Virus genome (UHGV): UHGV-0128973
Length of the DNA stretch: 64,000 bases
DNA from: a virus
Reading direction: 5' to 3' (one strand)
The translations under genes and the position numbers were made by a program. Positions 6,600 through 14,317 of the stretch are shown here, one piece after another. Position 1 is the stretch's first letter. Each line of letters opens with the position of its first letter. The notes under the pieces are model-generated. The model made no database searches and was not told where the DNA came from. It saw only the letters and a list, made by a program, of their open reading frames with translations.

Positions 6600-6955
6600 A
6601 GCACCACGTCCTGTGTGATAGTTATATCCCTGATACGAATGGATATTTTCAACTTATCAAAAGCATCTCCCTCGGCTACTGACAAGCCAGAAATCGGTAT
6701 GTCAGGTAAATCTACCGTCAGTTTTTGCAACAGCATTGCCTCAACCGCAATTTGAACATGCGACAAGTTGGTCGGTTCGTGTTTAAACTGCGGTAAAACA
6801 TTGCCCCATGACGGATCTCCGTATACCTCACCCTGATAAGTGTTTAGCCACTCATATAAACGAGCGCCCCAGGCCTCCTCCTGGGACTCATACGTTTTTA
6901 CGCCGGATAACTCCAGCGTCAGCAAAGGATCAATTTCGTTATTGTTGGCCATCAA
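6596..6955 (-). CDS. pmgA: Putative morphogenetic protein (119 aa).
   Basis: Complete ORF coupled to the sit stop and the bplA start. P1 synteny. Confidence 0.6.
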   Translation of the reverse strand: MMANNNEIDPLLTLELSGVKTYESQEEAWGARLYEWLNTYQGEVYGDPSWGNVLPQFKHEPTNLSHVQIAVEAMLLQKLTVDLPDIPISGLSVAEGDAFDKLKISIRIRDITITQDVVL

Positions 6956-9900
6956 TCAACTCTCGCGTAGTCATTCATCAACGGATCATCAATTGACAGT
7001 GGTACCGTGCGCATAACGCCCGGCTGAGGCGTGCTGACCTTTACGACAGTTCCCTGGCCTTTCGCCGAGTCTTTGGTGTGCTCTTCAATCCTGGCAAGCA
7101 ATGAGGTCATCTGCGCAAACAGCCGCTTCGTTTCACCATCAAGTGAAACGGTATTATCAGCCAACTGCATTGTCGGCTTGGCACCGGAACCGCCAAGGTC
7201 ACTAATAACCTGCCCGTCTATCTGCATACGACCGGTTGGTTGCTGCAAATCGTTGGCGGCAGTCGTCACCTTGGACGTGGAGGCTGGTTCAGTCGCATTA
7301 TTTTTCCGCATCCCCGGCGAGTTGCGGAGTTTATCGAATAGTCCATCAATCCCCATTTGTGCGCCGAGTTGGTCAAAGTAACTTGAGTTGCTGGCCACCG
7401 GACGCGCCTCTTCAACTGGCATCGGAGTATCAACATACACATTGCCAGCTGCTGTTGCGGTCCCCTTCCCTCGTGCACGTTCTTCGAGCGTTCCCTGAAC
7501 GACTTCCCGACGCATACCCCGGCCATTCATGAATTTGTTGACCAGATCGTTAACGCCAACAGCATTGCCGATTTTGTCTACCAGACCGCCTTTCTCAAAC
7601 GGGCTATCACCAGGGGTAAACGCCAGGCCAGTAGACTGATCGATAACAGCGTTATCAGGCAGTGGTCCCCTCACTCCATATTGCGCCCCACCCTGTGCTC
7701 CTGCTCCAGGTGTATAGATTTCACCACCTAAATAGCGAGCACGATGAGTATTGACCTTGATCGCGTACTCACGGTTTTCTTTCGATAAGTCACCTGTGCC
7801 TTTTTTCCACTTATTGATAGTGCCAAACCCAGCGTTATATGCAGTGATGGCCTCGTTTAAGTCTCCATTGGCTTGCTTCAGATACTTGCTCATGAGAAGA
7901 GCCGCAGCTTCTGCCGATTTCACAGGATCAAACGATTCACCTTCAGCTAAGCCAGTCTCTTCACGAGCAATCCCCGTGAACTGAAACATTCCCAGAGCAC
8001 CGGTTTGGGATTTTGCATACGGATTACCACCAGATTCAGTTGCAGCAATCGCGTAAAGAGTGCCTTCTGGAAGACCATATTTATTCTCTAGTTCAGCAAA
8101 ATACGGAGCCAACTTATCGAGATTTGCCTTACCTTCAGATCCAAGACTTCCGACTTTTACATCCAAGCGGCCATTGTTGTAGGTATCCGCAGCTTTCTGA
8201 ATGTCATTCCTGGTGCCAGTGGAATTAAGCGACGATGATGACGAGCTATTTTGACCAATAGCTTTATCAATTTTCTGCAACGCGCTATTGCCCGTTTCTA
8301 CGGCATTTGCATTGATAATCTGATTCGCAGTTTCTTTAACTGTTTTATTGCTATCTTTCGCCGTGTCCAGTGCCGCATTTATCACGCGGGTAACAATATT
8401 AGTCTGTTTGGCATCGGATTCAGTTTTAGAATCAGATGTCTCCTGGTGGCTATTAACCGGAGCTTTTAACTCTGGAGTGATTTCTTTCGCATTAGCCTCG
8501 CTCTTAACCGGAGCTTTTAACTCTGGAGCGATTTCTTTCGCATTAGCCTCGCTATTAACCGGAGCTTTTAACTCTGGAGTGATTTCTTTCGCATCAGCCT
8601 CGCTATTAACCGGAGCTTTTAACTCTGGAGTGATTTCTTTCGCATTAGCCTCGCCGATCGGATTGGGTATTTTTGATACAATCATTGCCGCAGGGGTATT
8701 TTTAACGGCATCAACCGCTGCATCTAATGCTTTACCAGGTAAATTTTTAACCCCATCCCAAATATTACCAGCCGCCTCTTTAATGTGTTTCCCTGGGTTC
8801 TTAATGAAATCAATTGCACTATCAATTGCATCACTGAAAACCTGTTTCAGGTTATCAACAGTAAAGAAGTCTTTGATGGCATCCAGCTTTTCAAGCAGCT
8901 TATTAGATGTATCGCTAAACCATGCTGAAACAGCATCACCAATCTTTGCTGTGTAATCTTCGAACTTGGTAGAAATGGTGTCGCCAAGGTTAGAAATATA
9001 TGTTTCTAAGTTGGTAATCCCACTATCAATGGCCTGGGCAATACTTTCCGTCGAAAATGATTGCAACATATTGCCGATATCCTCAAATCCAAGTGATTTG
9101 AGAACCTCACCAATGGCGCTGCTAATACCAGATACCAGTCCCCCCATATCAAGAACATTGGCTAACGTATAAGCGGCTTTTTGCTGGAATGATGGATCTT
9201 GTCCTGATTTAAGCCCAAACGCTCGACGTTGCGCTTCTGTATCATTCCAACCGGTTACCGCATCATAAATACCTCCAGCCACTGTGCCGACTAAGGGAAT
9301 TGCGCGTAACGCCCCTTTACCAACTGCCTTTAATCCAAGTTTACCTGCTGCCCGGGCAGCCAAATCTCCACCTTCATGGGCGATAGTCTTCTTGCCACCA
9401 CCGCGTAGCATTCCTACAAGTTTCTTTGCCCCCAGAGCGCCAAAAGCGAGTGCTCCAGCTTTTTTCAGCATGCCACGCCCCATTAACAACGACGCGACGC
9501 CACCGGCCCCCTTCCCTAACAGGCTAAATAGTTTGGACAGCAAGCCGCCCTTCTTTTTCCCGGTGTTTTTGGCTATCTGATCAAGGGCGCTGAGAATCTT
9601 GTCATTGCCCTCTTTAATTTCGCTGGTCTGCTCCTGAAGTTCCTGAACTGTCCGTTTTTGGGTGTTAACCTGAACGACATCGGCACTATTTTGCGATTTA
9701 CGCCTAAAAAAACCTTTTCTACGGCTGTTATCGTCATTGCCACGAATCACATCGGCAATAGACTTTCTGGCACCATTAAGCGATCCACCAACTTCTTTTG
9801 ATATCCCGCCAAGCTCCTTCCCTGCTGCCCACAATGGACCAGCAACGGCATAACCTAACGCATCAACGGCACGAGTCTCTGAAGGGTTACCTATGCCTTC

Positions 9901-10794
9901 AGCTACTTTTGACAGTTTTTTTAATAAACCTGATTCAGCATTTAGACGCTCATCATCCTCTTTGCGCCTGGCCTTTTCAGCACGTTCAGCACGGGCATCT
10001 TCCGCTGCGGCCTTACTCCCTGACTTTCCAATAAAACGACCACGCGCATCGCGTTGGTTTTGGCTTTTTTGCGCACCGCCTTTTTGATCGAACATTTCGC
10101 GAGCGTGTTCGGCTGCTTCGGTCCGTTGTGCCTTTATATCCTCTGGTATAGCCTTCCTGCGTCGTTTTTTACCCTTTGGTGTAGTTGATTTGGCCTGCTG
10201 TTCCTGTTGAGCAATGCCCTCCTGAACTACACGAGAAACGTCCCCTAAATTAAGCCGTTTCATTGCGTCAACAATAGGGTCTACTGATGGCGCATTGGCC
10301 ACAAAGTCTGGCCGGGAATTTTCGATTGTTCGATTTAATGCCGACACACTGCGAGATACTGGGTCAACCGTTGCAACGCGTTCCCCTTTCAAATCACGAG
10401 CGAGTTTGACCGTTTCTAACCGCTGTGCTTTAACATCCTCTGTTATTGCCTCTCTTCGTCTATTTGGGGGATTGTGCGCTGTTGGTGCAGCCTGCTGTTC
10501 ACGGTTAGTGACTTTGTCCTCCCGTATACGAGAAACGTCCCCTAAATTAAGCCGTTTTATTGCGTCAACAATAGGGTCCACTGATGGCGCATTGGTCACA
10601 AAGTCAGGACGTGAATTTTCGATTGTGCGATTTAATGCCGACACACTGCGAGATACTGGGTCAACAGTTGCAACTCGTTCCCCTTTCAAATCTTCAACAG
10701 CTTCCCGAATACCTGCAAGCTCTTCCAGCTCTTTCGCGCTGGCGGTTTCAACTGTCCTTATAACATCGTCAATATTGGCGTTTTTTCTTTCCAT
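6952..10794 (-). CDS. sit: Structural injection transglycosylase / tape-measure-like protein Sit (1280 aa).
   Basis: Carries a soluble lytic transglycosylase motif (LYAIAATESGGNPYAKSQTGALGMFQF). It is a very long, Gly/Ala-rich, repeat-containing protein in the P1 sit position. Confidence 0.85.
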   Translation of the reverse strand: MERKNANIDDVIRTVETASAKELEELAGIREAVEDLKGERVATVDPVSRSVSALNRTIENSRPDFVTNAPSVDPIVDAIKRLNLGDVSRIREDKVTNREQQAAPTAHNPPNRRREAITEDVKAQRLETVKLARDLKGERVATVDPVSRSVSALNRTIENSRPDFVANAPSVDPIVDAMKRLNLGDVSRVVQEGIAQQEQQAKSTTPKGKKRRRKAIPEDIKAQRTEAAEHAREMFDQKGGAQKSQNQRDARGRFIGKSGSKAAAEDARAERAEKARRKEDDERLNAESGLLKKLSKVAEGIGNPSETRAVDALGYAVAGPLWAAGKELGGISKEVGGSLNGARKSIADVIRGNDDNSRRKGFFRRKSQNSADVVQVNTQKRTVQELQEQTSEIKEGNDKILSALDQIAKNTGKKKGGLLSKLFSLLGKGAGGVASLLMGRGMLKKAGALAFGALGAKKLVGMLRGGGKKTIAHEGGDLAARAAGKLGLKAVGKGALRAIPLVGTVAGGIYDAVTGWNDTEAQRRAFGLKSGQDPSFQQKAAYTLANVLDMGGLVSGISSAIGEVLKSLGFEDIGNMLQSFSTESIAQAIDSGITNLETYISNLGDTISTKFEDYTAKIGDAVSAWFSDTSNKLLEKLDAIKDFFTVDNLKQVFSDAIDSAIDFIKNPGKHIKEAAGNIWDGVKNLPGKALDAAVDAVKNTPAAMIVSKIPNPIGEANAKEITPELKAPVNSEADAKEITPELKAPVNSEANAKEIAPELKAPVKSEANAKEITPELKAPVNSHQETSDSKTESDAKQTNIVTRVINAALDTAKDSNKTVKETANQIINANAVETGNSALQKIDKAIGQNSSSSSSLNSTGTRNDIQKAADTYNNGRLDVKVGSLGSEGKANLDKLAPYFAELENKYGLPEGTLYAIAATESGGNPYAKSQTGALGMFQFTGIAREETGLAEGESFDPVKSAEAAALLMSKYLKQANGDLNEAITAYNAGFGTINKWKKGTGDLSKENREYAIKVNTHRARYLGGEIYTPGAGAQGGAQYGVRGPLPDNAVIDQSTGLAFTPGDSPFEKGGLVDKIGNAVGVNDLVNKFMNGRGMRREVVQGTLEERARGKGTATAAGNVYVDTPMPVEEARPVASNSSYFDQLGAQMGIDGLFDKLRNSPGMRKNNATEPASTSKVTTAANDLQQPTGRMQIDGQVISDLGGSGAKPTMQLADNTVSLDGETKRLFAQMTSLLARIEEHTKDSAKGQGTVVKVSTPQPGVMRTVPLSIDDPLMNDYARVD
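8453..8656. repeat. Four tandem copies of a 51-bp (17-aa) repeat inside sit.
   Basis: Units at 8453-8503, 8504-8554, 8555-8605 and 8606-8656 encode (E)AxAKEITPELKAPVNS. Confidence 0.9.
10099..10692. repeat. Tandem duplication of ~297 bp (99 aa) in the sit N-terminal region.
   Basis: Residues 35-133 and 134-232 both read DLKGERVATVDPVSRSVSALNRTIENSRPDFV.NAPSVDPIVDA.KRLNLGDVSR. The DNA copies are visibly similar (about 10297-10395 versus 10594-10692). Confidence 0.85.
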
Positions 10795-12393: not shown

Positions 12394-12984
<591 letters not shown>

Positions 12985-13018
12985 TTACCCGATTCTACGA
13001 GTAGTCATTTGTGACAGG

Positions 13019-13495
13019 TCATTTTGCGCGCTTCAGACAGCCATCTTCAGGTGCCGCGTTGAAAAGCTCTGCGGCCTTACGTAGCGTAAATGTTGCTATT
13101 TTTTTTCCGTCTACGTATGCATCGAATGTTTTAACTTCCATATCAGGGGTATCTGACCAAAAACCATACCAGTAACTATCACCCACAGAGGAACCGATAG
13201 AACTGATAGGATATTCATCATCACCAACTTTCAGCGTTATTTGTTCTTTTTTAGCATCAAATGACTCACCGCCAGGTTCTGTTTTCATGAGAGTGAGTAG
13301 TCGTGTTCCTACTTGATTGGGATCCGTATTATTAAATCCAACATCGCACTCAAATGTAAGCGTATAATTATCTTTGCTGGAAACAGCATAAGAACGAACA
13401 CCATGAGTCTCGCCGGTTGACCATTTGCTTACATTTGCCATTGATGAAAATGGAGTAAGCAAAGCAAGAATTAGAAAAAATCGTTTGATGCGCAT
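13019..13495 (-). CDS. Secreted (periplasmic) protein of unknown function in the sim-like locus (158 aa).
   Basis: N-terminal signal peptide MRIKRFFLILALLTPFSSMA, and two Cys residues (C50, C153). It occupies the superimmunity (sim) position between pmgC and c4. Confidence 0.6.
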   Translation of the reverse strand: MRIKRFFLILALLTPFSSMANVSKWSTGETHGVRSYAVSSKDNYTLTFECDVGFNNTDPNQVGTRLLTLMKTEPGGESFDAKKEQITLKVGDDEYPISSIGSSVGDSYWYGFWSDTPDMEVKTFDAYVDGKKIATFTLRKAAELFNAAPEDGCLKRAK

Positions 13496-13556
13496 TAATT
13501 TATCTCCTTTGGATATTAACGATTATCAATATTTTAATTGGTTATCCATAATATAT

Positions 13557-14204
13557 TTACCATTCATAGGGTAAATTAAGCGCTTTTAAACCTTGCTGAA
13601 AGGTATTAAGTGAGCCGTTCTTTTGTTGTTCCATTTGCTCGCGTGCCGCTTTCTCATACTGCTCCATCCGTTGGTTATACTCTTGCAATTCCTCTGGTGA
13701 GAGGTTTCCCATTGGGGAGTTTGTACCCGGCCCCCTGGCCCGCTCTTCAAGCGTACCCTGCACGTTTTGATGGCGCATTCCTGGGGCATTTCTGATTGAG
13801 TCAATGCCATTTCTTCCAACGTCTTCTTTATTAACGGCATTGCTCGCCACCAGCACACCCCAGCTAGGAATAGCAAAATCAGGAGCGGTTTCGCATGCCT
13901 TTACCATATAATCGAAAGAGCTTCGATTGATCTCGTTTGCGTCGGGATTTAACAGGCGAGAATATTGATATTTAGCATTTTCGTTGGTTGCGACTTTATA
14001 CAGTTCTTGCTGCACCATCGCTTCAGAAAGTTTAAGGCGTTTCATATCTGACAGTAACTTCTTGCGCATGGATTCGTCTTGACTGACAGCAAAGCCGTAA
14101 ACGTGCCCAAGGTATTTCGTATAATCGGTACAAATCTCCTTTACGCTTGATGCTGCATTAACAGTCTCAGCCATAAATAATAACGGTAGTAATAGTTTTC
14201 TCAT
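13557..14204 (-). CDS. Secreted protein with a Sit-like peptide motif in the sim-like locus (215 aa from the RBS-supported ATG; the ORF extends to 14231).
   Basis: AGGTGAGG RBS precedes ATG 14204. Signal peptide MRKLLLPLLFMAETVNA. Residues APGMRHQNVQGTLEERARGPGT match Sit GRGMRREVVQGTLEERARGKGT. Confidence 0.6.
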   Translation of the reverse strand: MRKLLLPLLFMAETVNAASSVKEICTDYTKYLGHVYGFAVSQDESMRKKLLSDMKRLKLSEAMVQQELYKVATNENAKYQYSRLLNPDANEINRSSFDYMVKACETAPDFAIPSWGVLVASNAVNKEDVGRNGIDSIRNAPGMRHQNVQGTLEERARGPGTNSPMGNLSPEELQEYNQRMEQYEKAAREQMEQQKNGSLNTFQQGLKALNLPYEW

Positions 14205-14300
14205 TATAACCTCACCTGCCTTATAACTCATTTAGGGTACATATTTTCGCCTTTAAAAAAAAGAGGTTATTAGATCCAATTGTGTATTTATTAAGCATGT

Positions 14301-14317
14301 AATGCTCTAATAAATTT
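14301..14317 (+). promoter_or_regulatory. C1 repressor operator (probably Op51) controlling immI and sim transcription.
   Basis: AATGCTCTAATAAATTT differs at 1 position from the 17-bp C1 operator consensus ATTGCTCTAATAAATTT. Confidence 0.75.

What the first reader, a model, noticed from the sequence alone, without database searches (positions are those of the whole stretch)
13019..14231. The sim-like locus encodes two secreted proteins, one carrying a copy of a Sit C-terminal peptide motif
Between pmgC and the c4 operator region, where I recall P1 carrying the superimmunity genes simC-simB-simA, there are two minus-strand genes with clear Sec signal peptides (158 aa and about 215 aa).
- The larger protein contains APGMRHQNVQGTLEERARGPGT (nt 13722-13787).
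- This matches GRGMRREVVQGTLEERARGKGT near the C-terminus of the injected transglycosylase/tape-measure protein Sit (nt 7459-7524).
- The DNA of the two copies is well diverged, so the match is maintained at protein level and is not a recent duplication. A weaker third copy (NSPGMRKNN) lies 40 residues further along Sit.

A periplasmic prophage protein that mimics a segment of the incoming phage's injection protein suggests an exclusion mechanism. It might compete for a host or processing partner, or block Sit function in the periplasm. I have a vague memory that a SimB-Sit similarity was noted for P1, so the similarity itself may not be new. As far as I know, the mechanism has not been worked out.
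Basis: partly seen in the sequence, partly recalled or inferred. Interest (0 to 1): 0.55.

Follow-up and report, generated by a model that had tools for sequence, protein, structure and literature searches.

The report
Exported prophage protein copies tape-measure motif
A P1-like prophage encodes an exported protein whose flexible linker carries a conserved copy of a short peptide from the phage's own DNA-injection (tape-measure) protein, which probably blocks infection by related phages, although this has not been tested.

Summary
Two minus-strand genes lie between pmgC and the C1 operator Oc4: X (13557-14204, 215 aa) and Y (13019-13495, 158 aa). Both start with Sec-type signal peptides.

X residues 140-161 match Sit residues 1091-1112 at 16 of 22 positions (BLASTP E 9e-9 over 47 aa), but the DNA is only 67% identical.

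The label "sim-like" is only partly right.
- X and Y are not homologues of P1 SimC or SimB.
- P1's 52-aa SimA is a truncated remnant of X.
- No P1 Sim protein resembles Sit.
- Y belongs to the uncharacterised YfjT family.

The motif occurs only in Sit of P1-like phages and in X. It sits in a linker that AlphaFold2 predicts with low confidence, which I read as flexible. It is under purifying selection. In the most distant X clade it is 64-68% identical, against 36-39% for the folded domain.

My best reading (about 45% confidence, inferred) is that X interferes in the periplasm with the Sit of superinfecting P1-like phages, through this shared linear motif. Evidence against: 4 of 11 lineages kept only the first half of the motif, co-variation between X and its resident Sit is weak, and nothing shows that X is expressed or has any phenotype. 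I class it as a new variant of tape-measure-targeting superinfection exclusion.

The parts
13557..14204 (-). Gene X, 215 aa (an alternative upstream ATG at 14231 would give 224 aa). It is the full-length 'SimA-domain' protein, family phrog_3933.
   Evidence: ORF. Shine-Dalgarno GGTGAGG lies before the ATG at 14204. phrog_3933 match E 1e-135, covering residues 10-224 of the long form. 84 of 267 matching P1-like plasmids carry it at 80% coverage or more.
14154..14204 (-). Signal peptide of X (residues 1-17, MRKLLLPLLFMAETVNA, predicted cleavage after VNA).
   Evidence: Read from the sequence. N16 and A17 are invariant in the family. pLDDT is below 50 for residues 1-15. No SignalP run.
13815..14153 (-). 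Folded all-helical N-terminal domain of X (residues 18-130), with invariant Cys25 and Cys104.
13701..13841 (-). Sit-like segment of X (residues 122-168). The core motif APGMRHQNVQGTLEERARGPGT is at 13722-13787.
   Evidence: pLDDT is 45-57 over residues 131-170. Motif identity to the distant clade is 64-68%, against 36-39% for the N-domain. pN/pS is 0.2-0.65 with pS saturated.
13581..13697 (-). C-terminal long helix of X (residues 170-208). This module is variable and is replaced by other tails in other lineages.
13019..13495 (-). Gene Y, 158 aa. An exported alpha/beta protein of the YfjT family (PF27224) with two conserved Cys. It is the usual downstream partner of X.
6952..10794 (-). sit: the tape-measure / structural injection transglycosylase, 1280 aa.
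   Evidence: 90% identical to P1 Sit over residues 119-1280. P1 annotation.
7774..8103 (-). SLT lytic transglycosylase domain of Sit (residues 898-1007).
   Evidence: Pfam PF01464, E 1e-26.
7438..7566 (-). Sit motif copy 1 (residues 1077-1119; core GRGMRREVVQGTLEERARGKGT at 7459-7524), about 70 residues after the SLT domain.
   Evidence: Present in all 11 Sit proteins examined and in P1 Sit. Its core residues are invariant.
7297..7356 (-). Sit motif copy 2, partial (residues 1147-1166, ...GIDGLFDKLRNSPGMRKNN). Seen only in the E. coli-type Sit proteins.
14301..14317 (+). C1 repressor operator Oc4 (AATGCTCTAATAAATTT). It marks the right-hand boundary of the variable cassette, 97 bp upstream of X.
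   Evidence: P1 annotation. P7 diverges from P1 and from the window immediately to the left of this site.

Best explanation
**What the locus is.** The stretch between the C1 operator Oc4 and the late promoter LPsit/pmgC is a swappable cargo slot of P1-like phage-plasmids. It holds envelope-targeted accessory genes. In this window it holds the two-gene cassette X-Y, in which X is the full-length form of the gene that survives in P1 only as simA.

**What X looks like.** X is exported by Sec. It has a compact helical domain (residues 18-130), probably disulphide-bonded. This is followed by a linker predicted with low confidence, which I read as flexible. The linker displays a peptide of about 35 residues that also occurs about 70 residues downstream of the SLT domain of Sit, the tape-measure/injection protein.

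**Proposed mechanism (inferred).** When another P1-like phage contracts its tail, Sit is expelled into the periplasm. The motif on X then interferes with what the same motif on Sit must do there. The likeliest route is that X occupies the partner that the Sit motif has to engage. That partner could be a host envelope component or another part of the injection machinery. DNA entry would then fail after adsorption, which is superinfection exclusion.

**Shown versus inferred.**
- Shown: the gene anatomy, the homology relationships, and the motif's reality, restriction, conservation and location in a low-confidence linker.
- Inferred: export, expression from the prophage, the periplasmic encounter with Sit and the exclusion phenotype.
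For: **The motif is real.** BLASTP E 9e-9, profile E 8.5e-8, tblastn against the window E 1.4e-7.

**It recurs independently.** The Sit motif is the best non-self hit of the X C-terminus in loci L010, L014, L016 and L017.

**It is private to P1-like Sit and X.** An exhaustive HMMER search of 1.84 billion representatives found only Sit-family proteins, plus two repetitive proteins whose matches I judge spurious. So X copies Sit, not a host protein.

**It is selected.**
- Synonymous sites between lineages are saturated (pS 0.6-1.0), while pN is 0.23-0.45 in the motif.
- Within the window, 11 of 16 identical residues use different codons.
- In the most distant clade (P0052-55) the motif is 64-68% identical, against 36-39% for the folded domain.

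**It behaves like a linear motif.** It lies in a linker with pLDDT 45-57, between a domain with pLDDT above 90 and a helix. It is retained with three different C-terminal tails: a long helix, a Cys module, or a short tail.

**The compartment fits.** Both proteins have signal peptides and conserved Cys pairs.

**The locus fits.**
- P1 keeps its exclusion gene simC in this slot. [quoted passage not shown]
- P7 keeps a TraT-like lipoprotein there.
- Other variants carry membrane proteins.

**There is precedent.** Tape-measure or tail-lysin proteins are the targets of T4 Imm (bioRxiv 10.64898/2026.03.06.709160), HK97 gp15 (PMC3594210), TP-J34 Ltp (PMC3952083) and T4 Spackle (PMC7677548).
Against: - No experiment exists on X or Y, and I found no paper that mentions them.
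- 4 of the 11 X/Sit pairs (JK004, L016, L017, L018) keep only N-x-x-G-M/V-R-x-Q and replace VQGTLEERARG with an unrelated Cys-containing module. The full motif is therefore not indispensable to the family.
- X shows little co-variation with the Sit of its own genome: 13.8 against 13.1 identities of 38, permutation p 0.04, not significant for sub-regions, and not corrected for phylogeny.
- Expression is unknown. The only promoter evidence is P1's predicted PsimA, whose -35 differs here and which abuts the C1 operator. The consensus scan found nothing convincing upstream of X.
- P1 itself lost X, yet it excludes through SimC, which has no Sit motif.
- Neither the X nor the Y fold matches a known inhibitor, and PADLOC gave no hit.
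- I could not run an X-Sit complex prediction.
Confidence: 0.45

Rival explanations
1. Dominant-negative co-assembly. The motif is a self-association element of Sit, which is multimeric in the tail and may re-assemble into a conduit in the envelope. X's copy would pair directly with the motif on incoming Sit chains and poison their assembly, with the bulky N-domain acting as a cap. This is still exclusion, but by direct X-Sit binding and not by competition for a third partner.
For: The sequence evidence is the same as for the main explanation. The direct-binding precedent is T4 Imm bound to the tape-measure protein (bioRxiv 10.64898/2026.03.06.709160). E. coli-type Sit carries two tandem copies of the first half of the motif, as a repeated interaction element would.
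Against: There is no evidence that the motif self-associates. It is predicted with low confidence in X. Cognate X/Sit pairs hardly co-vary, although an almost invariant Sit motif would not demand co-variation.
Confidence: 0.2
2. Shared localisation or handling tag, unrelated to exclusion. The peptide would be a docking or processing signal for a periplasmic host factor (chaperone, protease or peptidoglycan) that both Sit and X need for their own separate purposes. X-Y would be a lysogenic-conversion cargo with a host-directed function, such as envelope or stress modulation.
For: The slot carries heterogeneous envelope proteins, some without an obvious anti-phage role (an SH3-domain membrane protein and a 116-aa polytopic protein). 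The YfjT family is named after a chromosomal E. coli gene of unknown function. Type B X proteins keep only the GMR half of the motif.
Against: No host protein carries the motif. A general host docking signal would be expected in other proteins as well. The motif occurs only in the injection protein of the same phage group, which is what a phage-against-phage function predicts.
Confidence: 0.2
3. Evolutionary scar. A fragment of sit, which lies only 3-6 kb downstream on the same strand, was captured once by illegitimate recombination and has no function of its own in X.
For: The locus is recombinogenic, with many alternative cassettes and C-terminal module swaps. Type B proteins have replaced half of the motif.
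Against: A neutral scar would not stay 64-68% identical while the folded domain falls to 36-39%. It would also not keep pN/pS well below 1 at saturated pS, nor keep 16 of 22 residues matching Sit with 11 of them re-coded.
Confidence: 0.07

Closest known systems
P1 superimmunity locus simC-simB-simA (Sim superinfection exclusion)
   Same: Same genomic slot between pmgC/LPsit and operator Oc4, same orientation, and the same upstream region (about 96-97% nt identity in the flanks). The products carry signal peptides. P1 SimA is 83% identical to the first 48 residues of X.
   Different: X and Y are unrelated to SimC and SimB. simC, the gene annotated 'superimmunity' in P1, is absent here. No P1 Sim protein has the Sit motif. 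P1 simA is a truncated relic, not the functional counterpart of X.
T4 Spackle (Sp), a periplasmic inhibitor of the tail-spike lysozyme gp5 (PMC7677548)
   Same: A phage-encoded periplasmic protein that acts on the muralytic tail component of a superinfecting phage.
Tape-measure-targeting exclusion proteins: T4 Imm (bioRxiv 10.64898/2026.03.06.709160), HK97 gp15 (PMC3594210), TP-J34 Ltp (PMC3952083)
   Same: The proposed target, the tape-measure protein during genome delivery, and the proposed outcome, a block after adsorption.
   Different: T4 Imm is a small membrane protein and Ltp is a surface-exposed lipoprotein; I recall HK97 gp15 as an inner-membrane protein. X has no membrane anchor or lipobox. 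X contains a copy of a tape-measure segment, a feature not reported for these proteins in the papers read.
YfjT family (PF27224), for gene Y
   Same: The precomputed Pfam assignment for the 99%-identical P0035 and for the X-adjacent genes in six other loci. Size and conserved Cys pair are shared across the X-adjacent members.
   Different: The family has no known function, so membership explains nothing mechanistically.

Membership tests
P1 SimC (Sim exclusion protein, phrog_14355) | Sequence homology to SimC | tested here: not met
   BLASTP of X and of Y against P1 SimC gives E of 0.83 or more. X, Y and SimC fall in different PHROGs.
P1 SimC (Sim exclusion protein, phrog_14355) | Blocks P1 infection after adsorption when expressed | not testable with these tools
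   Needs plating and DNA-entry assays.
SimA-domain protein family (phrog_3933) | Homology across the signal peptide and the helical N-domain with invariant CTDY..YLGH, LSEAMV and PD..IPSW | tested here: met
   phrog_3933 E 1e-135. 28 clusters, and the alignments. P1 SimA equals residues 1-48 of X.
YfjT family PF27224 (gene Y) | Match to the Pfam model | tested here: met
   PF27224.1 is recorded for P0035 (99% identical, full length) and all other hits. The local Pfam copy returned no match for Y, and I did not check whether it holds this model.
PTP-like phytase PF14566 (weak hit in X) | Score above the gathering threshold over the whole domain | tested here: not met
   26.7 bits against a cut-off of 27, covering only profile positions 45-132 of 158.
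PTP-like phytase PF14566 (weak hit in X) | Catalytic Cys-X5-Arg P-loop (the family signature, from my own knowledge) | tested here: not met
   The two conserved Cys are in ICTDYTKY and KACETAPDF. Neither is followed by Arg at +6 (sequence).
Membrane-anchored tape-measure-targeting Sie proteins (T4 Imm, HK97 gp15, Ltp) | Transmembrane helices or a lipobox anchor | tested here: not met
   Apart from the N-terminal signal peptide I saw no hydrophobic stretch and no lipobox Cys in the X sequence. No transmembrane predictor was run.
Membrane-anchored tape-measure-targeting Sie proteins (T4 Imm, HK97 gp15, Ltp) | Physical binding to the tape-measure protein | not testable with these tools
Known anti-phage defence systems (PADLOC-DB) | Match to any PADLOC model | tested here: not met
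   No hit for X, Y, SimC, Upf50.0 or Upf50.5 at E up to 0.1.

The most novel reading that the evidence does not exclude
X is a decoy. It would be a soluble periplasmic exclusion protein that works by molecular mimicry, displaying a short linear motif copied from the invading phage's own tape-measure protein. That would titrate the still-unknown partner Sit needs to open the envelope for DNA. The motif would then mark a previously unrecognised, essential interaction step in genome delivery by P1-type myoviruses, and X would be a ready-made probe to fish out that partner.
Probability: 0.3. Interest if true: 0.75.

Novelty: new variant of a known kind. Interest (0 to 1): 0.55.

Why it matters
P1 is a classical model phage, and P1-like phage-plasmids are widespread carriers of resistance genes in Enterobacteriaceae. 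How Sit delivers DNA, and how the sim region excludes, have not been worked out.

- A conserved Sit-derived peptide on an exported prophage protein gives a precise, mutable handle of about 25 residues on both questions.
- It suggests a mode of exclusion, motif mimicry of an injection protein, that is not described for the known tape-measure-targeting systems in the papers read here.
- It re-interprets P1 simA as a gene remnant.
- It shows that at least 84 of the 267 matching P1-like plasmids in PLSDB carry the intact gene.
- Exclusion specificity in this slot may shape which P1-like elements can coexist or replace each other.

Tried and rejected
- **X or Y as SimC/SimB homologues:** rejected.
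absent.
- **P7 cassette.** Y is not related to Upf50.0 beyond the signal peptide. Upf50.5 has no significant similarity to Sit. The weak hit of Upf50.5 to a 'tail associated lysin' PHROG probably reflects its glycine-zipper region.
- **X as a PTP-like phytase:** sub-threshold, partial and without a catalytic motif.
- **PDB sequence search:** nothing for the Sit C-terminus or X.
- **PADLOC:** nothing.
- **Cognate against non-cognate co-variation test on 11 pairs:** weak or inconclusive. An earlier run was mis-registered by one residue and was discarded.
- **Genome-contig scan:** only 4 loci, of little use.
- **Search for a second mimicked segment:** the type B C-terminal modules match nothing else in their 20-kb loci.
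- **Sit of the distant P0054 element:** could not be retrieved. It has no close relatives in the phage or plasmid collections, so cognate comparison for that clade is missing.
- **Lobocka et al. 2004 (P1 genome paper):** not held, so I could not check whether it comments on simA or Sit.

Full report
**What the window is.** It is a P1-like phage-plasmid (Punavirus). The 2-kb stretch around the finding matches phage vB_EcoM-Ro157c2YLVW at 97% over its full length. It matches P1 and P7 only in the flanks, covering 47% and 36% of the query. The annotated records show why.
- The interval between pmgC with its late promoter LPsit and the C1 operator Oc4 is a replaceable cassette.
- P1 holds simC-simB-simA there.
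- P7 holds upf50.0 (DUF5384) and upf50.5, a TraT-like lipoprotein.
- This window and Ro157c2YLVW hold two other genes annotated 'hypothetical'.
- A survey of 54 representative P1-like phage-plasmids lists simC/B/A as one of eight hypervariable regions (PMC9603915).
- The right-hand boundary is sharp. P7 diverges from P1 and the window immediately to the left of Oc4, which lies at window 14301-14317.

**Checking the observation.**
- The two minus-strand ORFs are 13019-13495 (Y, 158 aa) and 13557-14231 or 13557-14204 (X, 224 or 215 aa).
- The internal start at 14204 has a GGTGAGG Shine-Dalgarno sequence, and homologues that lack the extension begin there.
- Both proteins begin with a basic n-region, a hydrophobic core and a small-x-small cleavage site (VNA|A and SMA|N), with no lipobox Cys. 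Each has a conserved Cys pair. This is what soluble periplasmic proteins look like, but I had no signal-peptide predictor.
- The two peptides sit exactly at the stated coordinates. They share 16 of 22 residues but only 44 of 66 nucleotides, and 11 of the 16 identical residues use different codons.
- BLASTP extends the match to 23 of 47 identities, E 9e-9, and finds the weaker second copy at Sit 1147-1166, E 0.011.
- Against the whole six-frame window, Sit is the only significant non-self hit of X, E 1.4e-7.
- X also hits the Sit-family profile phrog_2533 at E 8.5e-8.

**What X and Y are.**
- Neither is related to SimC or SimB.
- tblastn shows that P1's 52-aa SimA is 83% identical to the first 48 residues of X and then stops. 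P1 simA is therefore a truncated remnant of X, left when simB-simC replaced the rest. Some database records call X homologues 'simA domain protein'.
- In PLSDB, 267 plasmids match X. Of these, 84 match at 80% coverage or more. Others carry a 163-aa form, and about half of the sampled rows carry only the remnant.
- Y belongs to the uncharacterised YfjT family PF27224. A YfjT-family gene follows X in all eleven P1-like loci examined, directly or after one intervening gene, although it is N-terminally truncated in some.
- In other variants the slot also contains a 116-aa polytopic membrane protein and an SH3-domain membrane protein.
- The slot is therefore an island for envelope-directed accessory genes.

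**Structure.**
- AlphaFold2 gives X a confident all-helical domain (residues 21-120, pLDDT 91-96).
- A low-confidence linker (131-170, pLDDT 45-57) contains the Sit-like peptide.
- A moderately confident C-terminal helix spans 170-208.
- Y is a confident alpha/beta fold (pLDDT 80).
- A borderline Pfam hit of X to PTP-like phytase is sub-threshold, partial and lacks a Cys-X5-Arg loop. I reject it.

**The motif across lineages.** I collected eleven X/Sit pairs from the window, phage JK004, three plasmids and six assemblies.
- Every Sit has KF[ML]N..GMR..VQGTL[AE][ED]RA[RY]G.GT about 70 residues after its SLT domain (Pfam SLT at residues 898-1007 here). The SLT domains themselves are of two different types. 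P1 Sit has the same motif.
- Every X has N[AS][PR][GS][MV]R.Q.
- Seven X proteins continue with V[QE]G[TS]L..RA[RL]G ('type A'), attached to three different C-terminal tails.
- Four switch to an unrelated PS....FK.C module ('type B').
- In L010, L014, L016 and L017, the best non-self hit of the X C-terminus within its own locus is again the Sit motif.
- A profile search then found a much more distant X clade (P0052-55, on a 104-kb contig with a different gene order and different exported neighbours). Its folded domain is only 36-39% identical to the window's X, yet the motif is 64-68% identical: NAPGMRHQAVKGSMAERARGDGT.
- Among type A genes, synonymous sites are saturated (pS 0.6-1.0) while pN in the motif is 0.23-0.45.
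- A segment predicted with low confidence that is better conserved than the adjacent fold behaves as a functional short linear motif.

**Where else the motif occurs.** An exhaustive HMMER scan with Sit 1065-1125 against 1.84 billion representatives returned six proteins. They were Sit-family proteins and fragments, plus two highly repetitive proteins whose matches I judge spurious. No host protein carries the motif. The motif is private to the injection protein of P1-like phages and to X, so X copies Sit. The two are not both copying a host protein.

**Mechanism.**
- Established knowledge: Sit is P1's putative tail ruler and structural injection transglycosylase (annotation).
- Tape-measure proteins leave the tail and act in the envelope during genome delivery, and they are recurrent targets of exclusion proteins (T4 Imm; HK97 gp15; Ltp). 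T4 Spackle is a periplasmic inhibitor of the tail lysozyme (PMC7677548).
- The best-supported reading is therefore that X meets the Sit of a superinfecting P1-like phage in the periplasm and interferes through the shared motif.
- I favour competition for the motif's partner (decoy) over direct co-assembly with Sit, but the data do not separate the two.

**Caveats.**
- Type B proteins lack half of the motif.
- Co-variation between X and the resident Sit is weak (13.8 against 13.1 of 38, permutation p 0.04, not phylogeny-corrected).
- Expression is unknown. P1's promoter PsimA is only predicted, its -35 differs here, and it abuts Oc4.
- P1 excludes without X.
- I could not model the complex.

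**Novelty.**
- I found no paper that mentions X, the YfjT family's function or an X-Sit similarity.
- Tape-measure-targeted exclusion is a known kind of system. A soluble exported protein that carries a conserved copy of a tape-measure segment would be a new variant of it.

Noticed in passing
window 6952-10794 (sit); tandem array 8449-8654; N-terminal repeat within about 10130-10750: Sit here is 1280 aa against 1140 aa in P1. It has four tandem 17-aa units (51-bp period, 96% matches). P1 residues 1-139 and 16-1140 align to window residues 1-139 and 119-1280, which implies an N-terminal duplication of about 103 residues. If Sit is the tail ruler, this phage may have a longer tail than P1.
   Followed up: partly
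L001 2897-3055 (P1 simA) against window 14061-14204: P1 simA, annotated as a 'putative superimmunity accessory function', is the truncated 5' end of gene X: the signal peptide plus about 30 residues, 83% identical over 48 aa. It looks like a gene remnant and not an accessory gene.
   Followed up: yes
window 13586-13876 (minus strand, alternative frame inside X): Several database clusters (P0002, P0004, P0007, P0008, P0017; mostly Logan read-run assemblies) are frameshifted versions of X. They switch into this 96-aa alternative frame at different points around the motif. These may be sequencing or assembly errors or real pseudogenes. I did not resolve which.
   Followed up: no
window 12967-13001: A perfect 11-bp inverted repeat (CTCGTAGAATC, 13 nt, GATTCTACGAG) lies between the stop codon of Y and the pmgC start. 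It overlaps the position of P1's late promoter LPsit (-10 at about 12992-12997 by alignment to P1). It could act as a terminator or attenuator for X-Y read-through, or belong to late-promoter control.
   Followed up: no
L010 9704-11662; L012 9581-11147; L013 10768-11121: Other versions of the same slot add a 116-117-aa polytopic membrane protein and a roughly 350-aa protein with a C-terminal SH3 domain and one hydrophobic segment. Neither resembles Sit.
   Followed up: partly
L003 2185-2706 (P7 upf50.5): The P7 lipoprotein in this slot weakly matches TraT, the plasmid surface-exclusion/complement-resistance family (E 7e-5, below the cut-off), and a glycine-zipper domain. RefSeq and PHROG label it 'DNA methyltransferase', which looks like a mis-annotation for an exported lipoprotein.
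   Followed up: no
Sit homologues in L010-L018 and JK004: The SLT domains of Sit fall into two clearly different sequence types (for example ...ATESGGNPYAKSQTGALGMFQF... against ...ESSGGQRxxHPxDKNGxxLSTALGPFQI...). The flanking motif and the C-terminal 100 residues are near-invariant, which suggests mosaic exchange of the muralytic module.
   Followed up: no
L020 10001-11452: The distant X clade (P0054) lies next to replication and DNA-metabolism genes, not next to pmgC. It is followed by a different 123-aa protein with a signal peptide and by a 161-aa protein unrelated to YfjT. X therefore travels without Y in that lineage.
   Followed up: partly
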